NCBI GenBank assembly: GCA_036785375.1 | Contig: JAWMAR010000081.1 | Location: 3,100,001 to 3,164,000, forward strand | Source: Leucoraja ocellata | Taxonomy: Eukaryota | DNA: 64,000 nt | Direction of reading: 5' to 3' | Shown: piece by piece, positions 12,001 to 64,000 of the stretch | Layout: each line of letters begins with the position of its first letter | Position numbering within the stretch: the stretch's first letter is position 1 | Made by a program: the position numbers

Positions 12001-15000
12001 GAACATGGAAGTAGATTGATCTGCTATGGCTATTTTGATGGCTATGAGCTTTTGGTACAACTTGGATTGGATTTGTTTGTTAGGTTTGTGCTCTACCTAT
12101 ATTTTTAATCTGCATGTCATTGAACAGATATAATAGTTAGATTATCTACATCATTGAAGGCTGCAGGTAGCGGCACACAATTTACTAATAATATTGGAAT
12201 CCAATAAAGCTGTACTCTTTCATGTACCACAGTTAGAAATTGAAGTCAAGAATAATGAAATCTGAATTTTGTTATTCATAAACTGAAGTGCTCATCTATT
12301 TTTAATTCTTCTACCAGTGACAGCAAGTGAGCTAACAAGTATCTGGATCATTTTTATTTCTAATTTAAGTTCTCAATGTTTCATTGTTGATTACATAGTT
12401 ATATGCATTAATTCTGCATGTTGTGTTTTTCAAATCGGGTCCCTAGCTATGTATTCTATTTAATCTAGAATCAAGCTGAAAACTGACTTAATCAAACTGA
12501 TACACTTATACAGATAGAATAACAGATCAGATTGCACGTTGGAATATGCTGCGTTGTCAACTTGCCACCTGCAACTGTTTGATTACCAGCAGCTGTGAAA
12601 TAGCTCCATCAACTTGGATTGTTTTTATATGTCTCCAGCAGCAATTGCTGCTTTAGATTTTCACTGGACCAATTACTTTTTGGCTGTTGGTATTATAAAA
12701 AGTGGAGAGGTGATCTTCGTTCCCAAACAAATTGAATTTCCTTTATTGTCATTCAGACCTTACGGTCTGAACGAAATTTTGTGCCTGCAGTCATACATAC
12801 AATGATACAATAGTAAACAACACTAAACACAAATTAACATCCACCACAGTGAGTCCTCCAAACACCTCCTCACTGTGGTGGAGGCAAAAATCTTAGGGCT
12901 GCAGTCTCTTCCCTCTTCTCCCTCTGCGCTGAGGCGATTCCCCACCGGGCGATGGTACAAACAGTCCCGCAGCTCACCGAACCCCGCGAACGGGCCGGTT
13001 CAAACACTGCGGCCCGGGGTGGTCGAAGCTGCCGCACCTCCAGTCCAGCACACGCAGCCGCCGGCCCGCGGCTGAACCCAGGACTCTGGACACCGCCGCT
13101 AGAACGTCGTCCCAGCCACCGGAGCACCGTCCCAGCCCCCGGACCGGATCGCCCTCACGTGAGTGCCGTTCCACCCTCGGGCTGGGCCACTCCAGCGGGA
13201 GTGCCGTTCCTCCCTCGGGCTGGGCCACTCCGACGGGAGTGCCGTTCCTCCCTCGGGCTGGGCCACTCCGACGGGAGTGCCGTTCCTCCCTCGGACTGGG
13301 CCACTCCGACGGGAGTGCCGTTCCTCCCTCGGGCTGGGCCACTCCAGTCCCTCACCATGCCGCTCTCACGGGAGCACCGTTCCATCCCGGGCTGGGCCGG
13401 GAGCGAGCCCAGGACGAGTCCTGTCAGCTGCCTCCAGAGTCCCGAGGTCGCCGGCTCCGCTAGGCCTCAGCGTAGACGGAGGCAGAGAAGGGGGATACGA
13501 CAAAAAGGTCGTATTCCCCCGAAGGGAGTGACAGCAGCCCCCGTTTCACCCCCCACCCCCCTCCCCACATAAACACAGCCTAAAAACCAAAAACATAACT
13601 AGACAAAACGAAAAAAAACAACACAAAAAAGTAAAAGACAAACGGACTGCAGGCGAGCCGCAGCCGTTCCCAGCGCCGCCACTTCCGCCGCCACTTCCAA
13701 AGGGATTGGGCAGCATTAAGGTTGTCCATCTTTCTTCTACCTTCAATTCTCATTAACTGTATCACATTTACAGCACGATCTCCTTCTTTATAAAGCCAAA
13801 AGGTTGTCATTCGGGAATCTTGTGCAAAAAAAAATGGTGTGCAGGAATTAATCTAATTCTGCATTTAAATGTTTTCAAAATTATTTCTTGATTCATAACA
13901 TGGATTCTTGGTATTTTGCTAGTCGGAGAACTAAGCAAACATGGACATTTTCCTGTTCATTTCACATTGACACAATTGAAAATCCAGTCTAGACCAGCTA
14001 ATAATAATGAACATAATATTTTATTAGAATGAGAATACAGAACAATAGAGAGTACGAAGAAAATAAAACATAAAACAAACAAGTTTTGTAACATCCCACT
14101 AATTATAGTTCCATCTCAAAAAAGTAACTTCCTTCAGAGAGCATAATCATTGACCTTCCTCCATCATGTGTCAGTAATGAAGCTAATAGCTGATAATTGT
14201 ACATTGTTCAATTCCATGTCCAGCTCCTCGGAAAATGAAGCAATCTGCAACTACTTCCAGCACAGCCTTTTATTCAGCTTGCAGGGTTTTGAGCTGAAAT
14301 GTCAACCATTCATCTCCAACACAGGTGTTCCATCTCCATCATAGATGTTCCTCTACATGCTGAGTTCCAGGCAGATTGTTTGTTGCTCCTTTTATTCCTA
14401 CTTTCCTGCGTTTCTCTATTACTGTCCCTTTTAATCTTAATTCATCTTCAGTTCAGATCAGTCTTTGTTTGTCTTTAACTTTTAAATTATTTTACCTACA
14501 TTTGGCAATCCCCTGAAAAACAATTAAGTATATCATATTAAATAAAGTGGAATTTTGAAAGGGAATCAGGAAGAGAATCAAATGTATCAAGTTGCTTGTA
14601 GAACCTGAAAACTGAGAAAGGCAATTCATGGTAATTTGTATTTCTTTCAGCTAACAGAGATAACTAATAATAATAACAATGGAATGAGAAAAGTAAAGGG
14701 ATTGGGTGCACCTAGTTCAGGTAAGTCTTTCTACTGAAAAAAATATTCCTCAGATTAATATTTGTGTTTTAAGTTCTGATAATCAATTGCATTCCAATTA
14801 ATATACTGCGGCGTACCATGTCATCAGAAATATAAATATTTTTGATAGTAAAACAAAATTGTTTCATCTCGTTTCTTACTGGTATTAGCTTATTATGGTC
14901 AAATGTACTGAGATATCCATTCAAATCCTACCATACATGAGTACAATCTAGCCATAGACATATACAACAGGACATTAAAATATCAGAGTAGCAGCGGGAA

Positions 15001-62400: not shown

Positions 62401-64000
62401 AAGGGTAGAGTGCTGACATGGATAGAAAATTGGTTAGCAGGCAGGAAACAAAGAGTAGGGATTGACGGGTCCCTTTCAGAATGGTGACTAATGGTGTACC
62501 GTAAGGCTCGGTCCTGGGACCGCAGCTATTTACAATATATATTAATGATTTGATGAAGGGATTGAAAGTAACATTAGCAAATTTGCAGATGACACAAAGC
62601 TGGGTGGCACTGTGAACGGTGAGGAGGATGATATGAGGATGCAGGGTGACTTGGACAATTTGGGTGAGTGGGCAGATGCATGGGAGATGCAGTTTAATGT
62701 GGATAAATGTGAGATTATCCACATCAGTGGCAAAAACAGGAAGGCAGATTACTATATAAATGGTGACAAGTTGGAAAAAGGGTAAGTACAGTGGGATCTG
62801 GGGAGTCCTTGTTCATCAGTCACTGAAAGTAAGCATGCAGGTACAGCAGGCAGTGAAGAAAGCGAATTACATGTTGGCCTTCATAACAAGAGGAGTTGAA
62901 CATTGGAGCAAAGAGGTCCTTCTGCAGTTGTACAGGGCCCTAGTGAGACCACACCTGGAGTATTATGTGCAGTTTTGGTCTCCAAATTTGAGGAAGGACA
63001 TTCTTGCTATTGAGGGAGTGCAATGGTTCACAAGGTTAATTCCTGGGATGACAAGAATAGGGGCTAAGCCATTTAGAATGGAGATGAGGAAATACCTTTT
63101 CACACAGAGAGTTGTGAGTCTATGGAATTCTCTGCCTCAGAGGGTGGTGGAGGCCGGTTCTCTGGATGCTTTCAAGAGAGAGCTAGATAGGGCTCTTGAA
63201 AATAGCGGAGTCAAGAGATATGGGGAGAAGGCAGGAACGGGGTACTGATTGGGGATGATCAGCCATGATCACATTGAATGGCGGTGCTGGCTCGAAGGGC
63301 CGAATGGCCTACTCCTGCACCTATTGTCTATTGTATTAAATAATAAAGTAATGATAATGTTCAACATGCTAATATACATAGGAAACTACTTAATGACGGT
63401 GTACATTCAGAAGATGTTTAGAATTTTGTAATTTGGCTTCCTTTTTATCCTTAGAAGACCATGAATTGTCAACTTCTCACACAACTAAAGTGTTCTCTTT
63501 TATATCTGGCTATGAACGGCAAGCCACAGACATTCCCAGTGTGACTAATCCAATCCCAGAACCCGATCCTACTAACGCAGGAGAGGCAGAATTTACAGGT
63601 AGTTCTAACAATATGTGTATTCTATATTTGAAATAAGCAATGGAGTAAATAATTGAAAGTGCATGCTTAGGTTCATCACAATTAAGGAAAAACGTCTGGA
63701 CAGGTGCCACAGTTGCCATACTAGGCCTTTATGTGAATATTTGTTTTGGTTATGTGTAAGGCATGGAAGAGCATGCAAAGCACAGCATACTGTACACTTA
63801 GCTGTCTTTCCTTAACTTGCTTCATCATTGTTGGCAACAATGTGAGAGAGCGTTGGAAGAAAATAAGAGGCGGTATGAAACTGATGAGATTGCTCTGTTT
63901 GGTTCTCATATAATTCTAATGAGCTGGATGACTTTGTTCCTTACTGTATTAAAAAAATTAAGTAATGATTATTTACAATGTGCTAATATTCATAGGAAAC

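What the first reader, a model, noticed from the sequence alone, without database searches (positions are those of the whole stretch)
14651..64000. Hidden gene built from an expanding array of about 24 symmetric phase-1 micro-exons
Seen: 24 AG/GT-bounded segments on the + strand with lengths 63(70), 45, 93, 69, 69, 90, 90, 81, 81, 84, 90, 87, 84, 75, 117, 141, 117, 138, 144 and 144 x5. All are divisible by 3, phase 1/1 and stop-free, and most end in ACA G|GTA. Spliced, they give about 826 codons of Cys-free S/T/P/E/D-rich repeat. Established: symmetric phase-1 cassettes allow any combination to be skipped or duplicated, as in CD44 variable exons, CD45 A/B/C exons, titin PEVK and ABI3BP. Inference: a lineage-specific modular protein whose length and composition are tunable by splicing and exon duplication. 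I cannot match it to a known gene.
Basis: partly seen in the sequence, partly recalled or inferred. Interest (0 to 1): 0.85.

Follow-up and report, generated by a model that had tools for sequence, protein, structure and literature searches.

The report
Skate ABI3BP cassette-exon array
These are real, already annotated middle exons of a skate's ABI3BP (TARSH) matrix-protein gene, whose flexible linker is built from small skippable exons, one of which has multiplied in skates.

Summary
The + strand from 14651 to 63598 carries 26 AG/GT-bounded, stop-free, Cys-free exons. Of these, 25 are divisible by 3 and phase 1/1, and 18 end in ACAG|GTA.

The gene is not hidden or lineage-specific. A profile of ten separate exons found RefSeq proteins of cartilaginous fishes that carry fn3 and TARSH_C domains.

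Twenty-four window exons map in order onto XP_055500958.1 of Leucoraja erinacea, which RefSeq misnames "mucin-2". Identity is 764 of 771 residues, and 23 of 23 junction residues are as predicted. Annotated isoforms of related skates differ by exactly these cassettes.

- Two exons were missed (15154-15222 and 17885-17965).
- The first exon is 70 nt, phase 0 to 1.
- The 87-nt exon has a second acceptor 6 nt upstream.

New here:
- One 48-residue cassette grew from one copy in a stingray to 11-16 in skates.
- Its 5' part is more conserved than the introns.
- There are five decayed pseudo-exons.

The window is a skate, not human.

The parts
14651..14720 (+). ABI3BP exon, 70 nt, phase 0 to 1 (LTEITNNNNNGMRKVKGLGAPSS)
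   Evidence: 23/23 identical to P0029 residues 253-275; AG acceptor, GTAAGT donor
15154..15222 (+).
   Evidence: 22/22 to P0029 277-298; junction codon GCA=A matches
17885..17965 (+).
   Evidence: 26/26 to P0029 300-325 and to P0001 297-322
20210..20254 (+). ABI3BP exon, 45 nt, phase 1-1
   Evidence: 13/14 to P0029, 14/14 to P0001
21055..21147 (+). ABI3BP exon, 93 nt, phase 1-1, basic (K-rich)
   Evidence: 30/30 to P0029 342-371
23215..23283 (+). ABI3BP cassette exon, 69 nt
   Evidence: 21/22 to P0029
24591..24659 (+). ABI3BP cassette exon, 69 nt
   Evidence: 22/22 to P0029
25546..25635 (+). ABI3BP cassette exon, 90 nt
   Evidence: 29/29 to P0029; found by nhmmer
27858..27947 (+). ABI3BP cassette exon, 90 nt
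   Evidence: 29/29 to P0029
29514..29594 (+). ABI3BP cassette exon, 81 nt
   Evidence: 26/26 to P0029
32792..32872 (+). ABI3BP cassette exon, 81 nt; its orthologue is skipped in Rhinoraja isoform X9
   Evidence: 26/26 to P0029; 27-residue isoform difference
33324..33407 (+). ABI3BP cassette exon, 84 nt
   Evidence: 27/27 to P0029
34066..34164 (+). Pseudo-exon: family copy whose donor reads ACAG|AT and which has no in-frame AG acceptor; its orthologue is a live exon in Rhinoraja and in the stingray
   Evidence: nhmmer E=1.2e-7; sequence; Rhinoraja EYEEPSSSGAFYIYSPKTPAPDNVDNKQFT; P0002 sequence
36908..36997 (+). ABI3BP cassette exon, 90 nt
   Evidence: 29/29 to P0029
37471..37563 (+).
   Evidence: 30/30 to P0029 with junction GTT=V; Rhinoraja X1 and X6 differ by 2 residues here
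40104..40187 (+). ABI3BP cassette exon, 84 nt
   Evidence: 27/27 to P0029
45292..45366 (+). ABI3BP cassette exon, 75 nt
   Evidence: 24/24 to P0029
46649..46765 (+). ABI3BP module exon, 117 nt (first of the 'HE.P..D.PNV.NPIPE' module family)
   Evidence: 38/38 to P0029; alignment A2
48329..48428 (+). Pseudo-exon: 5' half of a module copy with no family donor
   Evidence: nhmmer E=1.7e-10, model positions 2-94 only; sequence
51243..51383 (+). ABI3BP module exon, 141 nt; intact, but absent from the three Leucoraja isoforms seen
   Evidence: 41/46 to P0001 and 44/46 to P0030; absent from P0029, P0045, P0046
51657..51798 (+). Pseudo-exon: module copy with stops in every frame
   Evidence: nhmmer E=2.2e-8; translations
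52481..52597 (+). ABI3BP module exon, 117 nt; intact, but absent from the three Leucoraja isoforms seen
   Evidence: 35/38 to P0001 and 33/38 to P0030; absent from P0029, P0045, P0046
53221..53386 (+). Pseudo-exon: module copy without an AG at the family acceptor position; the open frame contains a Cys
   Evidence: nhmmer E=1.3e-6; sequence
53906..54012 (+). Pseudo-exon: 3' half of a module copy; donor reads ACAA|GT
   Evidence: nhmmer E=2.5e-16, model positions 66-172; sequence
55875..56012 (+). ABI3BP module exon, 138 nt
   Evidence: 44/45 to P0029 714-758
56615..56758 (+). ABI3BP module exon, 144 nt
   Evidence: 47/47 to P0029 760-806
59506..59649 (+). Tandem 144-nt module exon, copy 1
   Evidence: 45/47 to P0029 808-854; 620-bp unit
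60130..60273 (+). Tandem 144-nt module exon, copy 2
   Evidence: 46/47 to P0029 856-902
60744..60887 (+). Tandem 144-nt module exon, copy 3
   Evidence: 47/47 to P0029 904-950
61366..61509 (+). Tandem 144-nt module exon, copy 4
   Evidence: 46/47 to P0029 952-998
61920..63248 (+). Retrotransposon (reverse-transcriptase) fragment inserted in the intron between tandem copies 4 and 5; it explains the 1945-nt intron
   Evidence: ORFs; RVT_1 E=6.8e-4; unit 5 loses homology at its 5' end
63455..63598 (+). Tandem 144-nt module exon, copy 5; the array runs on past the window end
   Evidence: 47/47 to P0029 1000-1046; P0029 has 1273 more residues downstream

Best explanation
The window lies inside the ABI3BP (target of Nesh-SH3, TARSH) gene of a skate that is nearly identical to Leucoraja erinacea.

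**Layout**
- Bases 1-14650 are intron sequence with LINE fragments.
- From 14651 onward come 26 exons. They encode about 880 residues of the long, Cys-free, S/T/P/acidic linker.
- In the full protein this linker joins an N-terminal FN3-like domain to a C-terminal FN3 plus TARSH_C domain.

**How the array behaves**
- 25 of the 26 exons are symmetric in phase 1, and every exon ends in G. Each split codon therefore starts with G and cannot be a stop, so any subset of these exons can be skipped or duplicated without breaking the frame.
- With all exons included, 20 of the 25 junctions read Glu or Asp.
- This makes the linker's length adjustable by alternative splicing. Annotated isoforms of related skates differ by exactly these cassettes.
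- The array evolves by birth and death of exons:
  - A ~620-bp exon-plus-intron unit was amplified in skates.
  - Other copies lost their splice sites or reading frame.

**Shown versus inferred**
- Shown: gene identity, exon boundaries, frame symmetry, the amplification and the pseudo-exons.
- Inferred:
  - The linker is a disordered, probably O-glycosylated spacer.
  - It displays the conserved motif TD.P.V.NPIPE many times.
  - Inclusion of its exons is regulated in this species.
For: **Finding the gene**
- A profile of 10 separate exons was scored against 1.84 billion representative proteins. 14 hits had E<=1e-3. The top hit, P0001, had 26 matched stretches and 1462 bits.
- The six hits whose names were looked up (P0001-P0004, P0011, P0013) are all from cartilaginous fishes: four are named target of Nesh-SH3(-like), one abi3bpa, and the Callorhinchus entry a fibronectin type-III domain-containing protein.

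**Domains**
- Pfam finds TARSH_C (E=1.6e-50) and fn3 (E=2.7e-16) in P0029. Comparable hits occur in P0001-P0004, P0011, P0013 and P0030.

**Colinear mapping, one exon at a time**
- P0029: 764/771 residues over 24 of 26 exons. 23 of 23 junctions show exactly one intervening residue equal to the predicted split codon.
- P0001 (Amblyraja radiata X26): 795/855 residues over all 26 exons. 21 of the first 22 junctions agree. The odd one is shifted by a one-residue difference inside the next exon.

**Isoform differences fall on whole cassettes**
- Amblyraja X26 vs X30: 240 residues, which is 5 x 48.
- Rhinoraja X1 vs X9: 27 residues, the orthologue of 32792-32872.
- Rhinoraja X1 vs X27: 123 residues, the orthologues of four consecutive window exons.
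- Rhinoraja X1 vs X15 and X16: one 48-residue module each.
- Leucoraja X1 vs X5: one 48-residue module.

**Selection in the five young tandem units**
- The first 99 nt of the exon have 10/99 variable columns, against 100/339 in the introns (Fisher p=4e-5).
- The splice flanks have 2/23 variable columns.

**Module tree**
- 45 skate modules (Leucoraja 16, Amblyraja 13, Rhinoraja 11, window 5) form one group, with a single stingray module as sister.
- Support is 88/68 for the skate group and 98/74 for the group including the stingray module.

**Structure and strand**
- AlphaFold2 of one module: mean pLDDT 65, pTM 0.15, no secondary structure.
- No Pfam domain other than transposon domains reached its curated cut-off in any of 350 open frames of 55 residues or more, on either strand.

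**Human ABI3BP, from passages read**
- The cassette region codes the disordered part of the protein (PMC9239745).
- The disordered region 391-818 is partly spliced out (PMC13518942).
- There is a cluster of 10 mutually exclusive exons (PMC5740500).
Against: - No transcript reads were available. All splicing evidence is RefSeq XP_ model isoforms of relatives, not experiments in this animal.
- Exons 51243-51383 and 52481-52597 are intact in the window but absent from all three Leucoraja isoforms retrieved (X1, X4, X5; X2 and X3 were not seen).
- The terminal domains that define ABI3BP lie outside the window. Membership therefore rests on colinearity with proteins that carry them.
- 7 of 771 residues differ from the Leucoraja RefSeq protein, so the window is another individual, assembly or very close species.
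- The last 45 nt of the tandem exon vary as much as the introns (17/45 vs 100/339 variable columns, p=0.30). That part shows no constraint.
- The single-module AlphaFold model used only 10 aligned sequences. A mean pLDDT of 65 is not clearly 'disordered'.
- The first single-exon search found nothing.
Confidence: 0.93

Rival explanations
1. A separate, lineage-specific gene with no known relatives.
For: A single-exon search of proteins of 84-2000 residues found nothing. The linker sequence is recognisable only within cartilaginous fishes in the two searches made.
Against: The exons are colinear at 99% identity with the middle of RefSeq proteins. Those proteins begin with an FN3-like domain and end with fn3 plus TARSH_C. 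One search missed them because the skate proteins are 2049-2349 residues long, beyond that search's length window.
Confidence: 0.02
2. Unexpressed intronic repeats: decayed exon copies, or a repeat family that merely looks like exons.
For: Five copies in the window are indeed dead. The array sits among transposon fragments.
Against: - All 26 exons are open and AG/GT-bounded. They match annotated coding sequence with the correct junction residues.
- The exon 5' part and the splice flanks are more conserved than the introns in the young units.
- No host-gene domain was found on the opposite strand.
Confidence: 0.02
3. A gel-forming mucin (mucin-2), as the RefSeq name of the Leucoraja protein says.
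For: RefSeq names XP_055500958.1 'mucin-2 isoform X4'. S+T is 26% and Pro 11%.
Against: - Pfam on that protein finds fn3 and TARSH_C. No VWD, C8, TIL or cystine-knot family is among its six hits at E<=0.001.
- The repeat is Cys-free and split into small exons.
- Orthologues in other species are named target of Nesh-SH3 or abi3bpa.
Confidence: 0.01
4. The gene is ABI3BP, but the exons in this window are mostly constitutive. On this view the many model isoforms overstate regulated splicing, and the array is a fixed long spacer.
For: - All isoform evidence is computational models.
- 24 of the 26 exons are included together in Leucoraja X4.
- Most acceptors and donors look strong.
Against: - Isoform differences in three skates and several other species fall exactly on cassette boundaries.
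- Cassette splicing of this region is reported in human tissue (PMC9239745 and PMC13518942, passages read).
Confidence: 0.15

Closest known systems
Human and mammalian ABI3BP (TARSH): central disordered region encoded by cassette exons
   Same: - It is the same gene family. The proteins that contain the window's exons carry fn3 and TARSH_C.
- The human gene also has a cassette region coding the disordered part, which is differentially spliced (PMC9239745, PMC13518942).
- It also has a cluster of 10 similar exons scored as mutually exclusive (PMC5740500).
   Different: - The linker sequence was not recognisable outside cartilaginous fishes in the two searches made.
- Skate proteins are longer: 2049-2349 residues, against 1786 for the longest human isoform cited in PMC9239745.
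- The extra length comes from one 48-residue cassette amplified to 11-16 copies.
RefSeq models of skate ABI3BP: XP_055500958.1 (Leucoraja erinacea, 'mucin-2 isoform X4'), XP_032888575.1 (Amblyraja radiata, target of Nesh-SH3 X26) and XP_078265653.1 (Rhinoraja longicauda)
   Same: They show the same exons, order and boundaries. Identity is 99.1%, 93.0% and 90.5% over the exons that match.
   Different: - The Leucoraja isoforms seen lack window exons 51243-51383 and 52481-52597.
- Rhinoraja keeps an exon that is a pseudo-exon here (34066-34164).
- Numbers and order of the tandem modules differ between genera.
CD44 variable exons, CD45 A/B/C exons and titin PEVK exons
   Same: They share the principle of short symmetric exons that encode unstructured, glycosylated or elastic segments and can be combined freely. 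This comparison is recalled knowledge and was not tested here.
   Different: No homology was found or sought beyond the profile search, which returned none of these. My early CD45 idea found no support (one search returned no paper, and the identification made it moot).
Gel-forming mucins (MUC2)
   Same: S/T/P-rich repetitive sequence and the RefSeq name.
   Different: No mucin domains appear. There are no cysteines. The repeat is split into many small exons rather than held in one large exon; that last contrast is recalled knowledge.

Membership tests
ABI3BP / TARSH (target of Nesh-SH3) | C-terminal TARSH_C domain (PF21731) | tested here: met
   The domain lies outside the window, so it was tested on the proteins that contain the window's exons: P0029 E=1.6e-50, P0001 E=7.7e-50, P0030 E=3.6e-49.
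ABI3BP / TARSH (target of Nesh-SH3) | Fibronectin type III domains on both sides of the linker | tested here: met
   fn3 has 2 stretches in P0029, the best at 2086-2173. FN3-like hits also occur at about 119-211. Both regions lie outside the window.
ABI3BP / TARSH (target of Nesh-SH3) | Colinear match of the window's exons to an annotated family member | tested here: met
   764/771 residues and 23/23 junctions to P0029. 795/855 residues to P0001.
ABI3BP / TARSH (target of Nesh-SH3) | Central disordered region built from short in-frame cassette exons | tested here: met
   25/26 exons are symmetric in phase 1, with 0 Cys and 50% S/T/P/E/D. AlphaFold2 gives no secondary structure. Isoforms differ by whole cassettes.
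ABI3BP / TARSH (target of Nesh-SH3) | Conserved gene neighbourhood of ABI3BP | not testable with these tools
   The window holds only part of this one gene. No eukaryotic genome collection was available.
ABI3BP / TARSH (target of Nesh-SH3) | Transcripts in this animal that join these exons to the terminal domains | not testable with these tools
   No RNA-seq data were available. Only RefSeq model proteins were seen.
Gel-forming mucin (MUC2) | VWD/C8/TIL assemblies and a C-terminal cystine knot | tested here: not met
   The Pfam scan of P0029 lists six families at E<=0.001, and none is a mucin domain.
Cluster of mutually exclusive exons (as scored for human ABI3BP in PMC5740500) | Exactly one exon of the cluster is included per transcript | tested here: inconclusive
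   - Many modules are included together in every model seen, so the array as a whole is not mutually exclusive.
- Amblyraja X25 and X26 have equal length but 54 mismatches confined to residues 950-1319. That could be a swap of equal-length modules.

The most novel reading that the evidence does not exclude
The skate ABI3BP linker behaves like a birth-and-death family of exons under selection.

**Amplification**
- One 48-residue cassette went from a single copy in a stingray to 11-16 copies in three skate genera.
- It is still being amplified in genus-specific ways. Amblyraja has four identical consecutive copies. Leucoraja has a four-module higher-order repeat.

**Constraint within the module**
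- Each young copy keeps its first 33 codons and its splice sites under constraint.
- Its last 14 codons change almost only by amino-acid replacements.
- Across 125 distinct modules from 12 species the motif TD.P.V.NPIPE is kept.

**The bold reading**
- The module is not inert spacer. It is a repeated binding motif followed by a variable tail.
- Copy number and exon choice would then tune the valency of a matrix interaction in skates.
Probability: 0.2. Interest if true: 0.4.

Novelty: already known. Interest (0 to 1): 0.2.

Why it matters
**Effect on the scan**
- A candidate 'hidden gene' is removed. It is ABI3BP, which is annotated in RefSeq for this or a nearly identical skate and known in mammals for its cassette-encoded disordered linker.

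**What may still be useful**
1. The RefSeq name 'mucin-2' for the Leucoraja gene is wrong and can mislead.
2. The locus is a clean natural example of how a symmetric phase-1 exon array grows and decays. It shows tandem amplification, higher-order repeats, exon death and a tandem acceptor.
3. The conserved motif inside a supposedly disordered linker suggests a testable binding element. Reviews describe the biochemical role of this protein as largely unknown (PMC6426741, section 3 read).

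Tried and rejected
**Ideas dropped**
- My first guess was a CD45-like variable-exon array. The paper search (CD45, alternatively spliced exons, catfish, duplication) returned 0 papers. The idea was dropped once the profile search identified ABI3BP.

**Searches that returned little or nothing**
- Single-exon search (47 residues, 'longer' proteins of 84-2000 residues): 3 candidates, none scored. The skate proteins exceed 2000 residues.
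- Rfam over the whole window: 0 matches.
- Pfam over all 350 stop-to-stop frames of 55 residues or more, on both strands:
  - The hits above their curated cut-offs were transposon domains: one RVT_1, Exo_endo_phos, Exo_endo_phos_2 and a marginal ALKBH8_N hit that I take for a LINE tail (from recall). Two further RVT_1 hits fell below the cut-off.
  - Four weak sub-threshold hits were taken as chance: COA2, DUF7733, DUF2116 and DUF1722.
- tblastn of P0029 residues 1-300 against the window at E<=10: only the two exons at 14651 and 15154 matched. The upstream exons are therefore not in the window.
- Search with the chimaera linker (P0044 residues 650-1250): 9 hits, all from cartilaginous fishes. 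This is weak evidence of absence elsewhere, because that tool needs shared 5-residue words.
- Paper searches: ABI3BP + skate gave 0. ABI3BP + exon duplication found 2 papers, 1 listed (PMC5740500).

**Sites rejected as exon ends**
- The ACAGGTA sites at 15275, 28408, 35560 and 37844. They have no usable in-frame acceptor (15275, 37844), only a short poorly supported one (28408), or lie in a LINE fragment (35560).

**Steps not taken**
- A joined spliced model was deliberately not built or searched. All searches used single exons or an alignment of separate exons.
- Supplements of PMC9239745 and PMC5740500 were not seen. Their junction tables and list of human ABI3BP cluster exons could show how the human array compares.
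- The bacterial/archaeal genome-contig collection was not used because it is irrelevant here.

Full report

Yes. The window has no N. The heptamer ACAGGTA occurs 22 times on the + strand and once on the - strand. Dinucleotide-preserving shuffles expect 7.6 +/- 2.7 for both strands together, and none of 100 reaches 23.

I walked upstream from each donor in phase 1 and looked for in-frame AG acceptors with pyrimidine tracts. A DNA profile search with the exons found the three I had not yet placed, the 90-, 90- and 84-nt exons, as well as five decayed copies.

A crude whole-region control counted AG...G|GT[AG] segments of 45-150 nt with a pyrimidine-rich acceptor. The class 'length divisible by 3, open in phase 1' has 80 members on the + strand. 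The other eight classes have 23-42, and all classes on the - strand have 19-31.

**2. What is it?**

- One 47-residue exon, searched against proteins of 84-2000 residues, found nothing.
- An alignment of ten separate module exons (A2) was used as a profile against 1.84 billion representative proteins. It gave 14 hits at E<=1e-3. The best was P0001, at 2289 residues with 26 matched stretches and 1462 bits.
- Source names of the six hits looked up:
  - P0001 is XP_032888575.1, target of Nesh-SH3 isoform X26 of Amblyraja radiata.
  - Four others are target of Nesh-SH3(-like) or abi3bpa proteins of Hemitrygon, Hemiscyllium, Narcine and Heptranchias.
  - The Callorhinchus entry looked up (P0011) is named only a fibronectin type-III domain-containing protein. 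Another Callorhinchus record (P0044) is named target of Nesh-SH3.
- Pfam finds fn3 and TARSH_C at their C-termini and FN3-like hits near the N-terminus.
- A second search with P0001 residues 250-890 added four more orthologues:
  - Leucoraja erinacea (P0029, XP_055500958.1, named 'mucin-2 isoform X4').
  - Rhinoraja longicauda (P0030).
  - Mobula.
  - Cetorhinus.
- It also added further isoforms of species already seen.

Each window exon was mapped separately onto these proteins.

| Protein | Exons matched | Identity | Junction check |
|---|---|---|---|
| P0029 (Leucoraja X4) | 24 of 26 | 764/771 (99.1%) | 23 of 23 junctions have exactly one intervening residue equal to the predicted split codon |
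| P0001 (Amblyraja X26) | 26 of 26 | 795/855 | 21 of the first 22 junctions agree |
| P0030 (Rhinoraja X6) | 22 of 26 | 674/745 | 15 of 21 have one intervening residue; 4 of the 6 exceptions lie in or beside the tandem array |

In P0001 the one exception is offset by a single-residue difference inside the next exon. The three junctions inside the tandem array cannot be paired one to one.

P0029 carries TARSH_C (E=1.6e-50) and fn3 (E=2.7e-16) and no mucin domain. The gene is therefore ABI3BP/TARSH, and the RefSeq name 'mucin-2' is a misnomer.

The window comes from a skate nearly identical to L. erinacea. I do not take it for human.

Residues 1-252 of P0029 have no match in the window. Bases 1-14650 are therefore intron sequence, and it is full of LINE fragments. 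P0029 continues for 1273 residues beyond the last window exon.

**3.

- The first exon is the 70-nt version (14651-14720), phase 0 to 1.
- Two exons were missed: 15154-15222 (69 nt) and 17885-17965 (81 nt).
- I take the 45-nt exon to be 20210-20254.
- The 87-nt exon has an in-frame acceptor 6 nt upstream (37471), which the skate models use. Rhinoraja isoforms X1 and X6 differ by exactly these two residues.

Final tally:
- 26 exons, 2641 nt, 855 whole codons within exons.
- 0 Cys, S/T/P/E/D 50%, S+T 26%.
- 113 acidic against 67 basic residues.
- 25 of 26 exons symmetric in phase 1.
- 18 of 26 donors read ACAG|GTA.
- Exons make up 5.4% of the span.

**4. How it most likely works**

Every exon ends in G, so every split codon begins with G and can never be a stop. 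With all exons included, 20 of the 25 junction codons read Glu or Asp. Any subset of the symmetric exons can therefore be skipped or duplicated without harm to the frame.

Annotated isoforms behave exactly so:
- Amblyraja X26 and X30 differ by one block of 240 residues, which is 5 x 48.
- Rhinoraja X1 differs from X9 by the 27-residue orthologue of 32792-32872.
- Rhinoraja X1 differs from X27 by 123 residues, the orthologues of exons 37471, 40104, 45292 and 46649.
- Rhinoraja X1 differs from X22 by 27 + 60 residues, from X15 and X16 by single 48-residue modules, and from X25 by two modules.
- Leucoraja X1 and X5 differ by one module.
- Isoforms of Hemitrygon, Stegostoma and Narcine, and Hemiscyllium X16 against X21, also differ by blocks of module size or multiples. 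Several other gaps in that call (Mobula; Hemiscyllium X21 against X25) were placed inside modules by the alignment, so they neither support nor contradict this.

These are model proteins, not experiments. That such variants normally need transcript support is my recollection, not a result here.

In human tissue, the papers say this (passages read):
- The ABI3BP cassette region codes the disordered part and is differentially spliced in osteoarthritic cartilage (PMC9239745).
- The disordered region 391-818 is partly spliced out during osteoblast differentiation (PMC13518942).
- There is a cluster of 10 similar exons scored as mutually exclusive, which was lost in the mouse-rat ancestor (PMC5740500).
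- A review describes ABI3BP as an extracellular-matrix protein with largely unknown biochemical function (PMC6426741; abstract and section 3 read).

AlphaFold2 on one module with the 10-row alignment gave mean pLDDT 65, pTM 0.15 and no secondary structure. This is compatible with an extended or disordered linker.

That the linker is O-glycosylated and acts as an adjustable spacer is inference from composition and from the mammalian literature.

**5. Growth and decay of the array**

*The tandem units.*
- The last five exons sit in a ~620-bp tandem unit.
- A reverse-transcriptase fragment is inserted between copies 4 and 5.
- Variable alignment columns among the five units:

| Part | Variable columns | Comparison with introns |
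|---|---|---|
| First 99 nt of the exon | 10/99 | Fisher p=4e-5 |
| Splice flanks | 2/23 | not tested |
| Introns | 100/339 | reference |
| Last 45 nt of the exon | 17/45 | p=0.30 |

- In the last 45 nt, 11 of the last 13 codons vary, nearly all by amino-acid replacements.
- So the young copies are constrained in their 5' two-thirds and at their splice signals, and apparently free in their tail.

*Module numbers across species.*
- One isoform per species was counted with the profile. These are lower bounds:

| Group | Modules |
|---|---|
| Three skates | 23-25 |
| Hemitrygon and Mobula | 13-14 |
| Narcine (N-terminally short model) | 8 |
| Four full-length sharks | 9-18 |
| Heptranchias (555-residue model) | 4 |
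| Chimaera | 2 |

*Module tree (97 modules; three skates, the stingray and the window).*
- 45 skate modules form one group (support 88/68): Leucoraja 16, Amblyraja 13, Rhinoraja 11, window 5.
- A single stingray module is its sister (98/74).
- The older window modules each form 1:1 orthologue sets across genera.
- Inside the amplified group there are genus-specific runs. Amblyraja has four identical consecutive copies. Leucoraja has three identical copies spaced 192 residues apart, that is, a four-module higher-order repeat. Rhinoraja has clades of its own.
- With 46 columns many forks are unresolved. Identical copies could also be assembly artefacts.

*Dead copies.*
- Five copies in the window are dead.
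- The one at 34066-34164 has lost its donor. Its orthologue is a live exon in Rhinoraja and in the stingray protein P0002.

*Conserved positions.*
- Across 125 distinct modules from 12 species the most conserved positions are H1, T23, D24, P26, V28, P31-I32-P33-E34, I40, E44 and T46. This is a fixed motif inside an otherwise compositional repeat.

**6. Other strand and rivals**

No open frame of 55 residues or more on either strand has a Pfam domain above its curated cut-off other than transposon domains (350 frames). Rfam finds nothing. There is no sign of an opposite-strand host gene.

The 'separate new gene', 'dead intronic repeats' and 'mucin-2' readings are each contradicted.

**7. Verdict**

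It is wrong that the gene is hidden or unmatchable.
- The gene is known and annotated, so novelty is 'already known'.
- The skate-specific amplification, the exon deaths and the conserved motif are modest additions. I found no paper on them in two searches: ABI3BP + skate returned 0 papers, and ABI3BP + exon duplication found 2 papers, 1 listed (PMC5740500).

Unchecked:
- Transcripts in this species.
- The flanks of the contig.
- Gene neighbourhood.
- The supplements of PMC9239745 and PMC5740500.

Noticed in passing
window 12850-13600: A CpG-island-like stretch (GC 67%, CpG observed/expected 0.78, against 0.34 for the whole window). It contains five copies of a 38-bp tandem repeat at 13157-13345. 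It lies about 1 kb upstream of exon 14651, inside the ABI3BP intron. It could be an internal promoter or simply a GC-rich repeat.
   Followed up: partly
window 3449-5392 (+) and 8553-10844 (-): Two LINE fragments with reverse-transcriptase and endonuclease frames (RVT_1 E=1.1e-33, Exo_endo_phos E=3.6e-15). A short frame, MIKTNLPPPPSLEAHSTPLPLSE, recurs in near-identical form at 2874 and 8055 on the + strand.
   Followed up: partly
window 35204-35647 (+), 16650-16922 (-), 61920-63248 (+): Further LINE-tail fragments lie in ABI3BP introns. The one at 35.2-35.6 kb carries a chance ACAGGTA at 35560. The one at 61.9-63.2 kb splits the tandem array.
   Followed up: partly
window 37471/37477: Two tandem in-frame acceptors lie 6 nt apart (AAG, then CAG). 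The upstream AAG is the one used in the skate RefSeq models. Rhinoraja has isoforms with and without the two extra residues.
   Followed up: yes
P0029 (XP_055500958.1, Leucoraja erinacea): RefSeq names this ABI3BP orthologue 'mucin-2'. Heterodontus has 'fibronectin type III domain-containing protein 1-like', and several species have 'uncharacterized protein'. Automatic names for this gene are inconsistent.
   Followed up: yes
window 23420-23478 and 58345-58417: An intronic (TA)29 microsatellite and a 23-bp tandem repeat of 3.2 copies.
   Followed up: no
precomputed Pfam lists: Most full-length orthologues carry PF28033, a family not in the Pfam copy I could scan. The Callorhinchus records listed lack it. 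I could not tell whether it models the N-terminal region or the repeat module.
   Followed up: no
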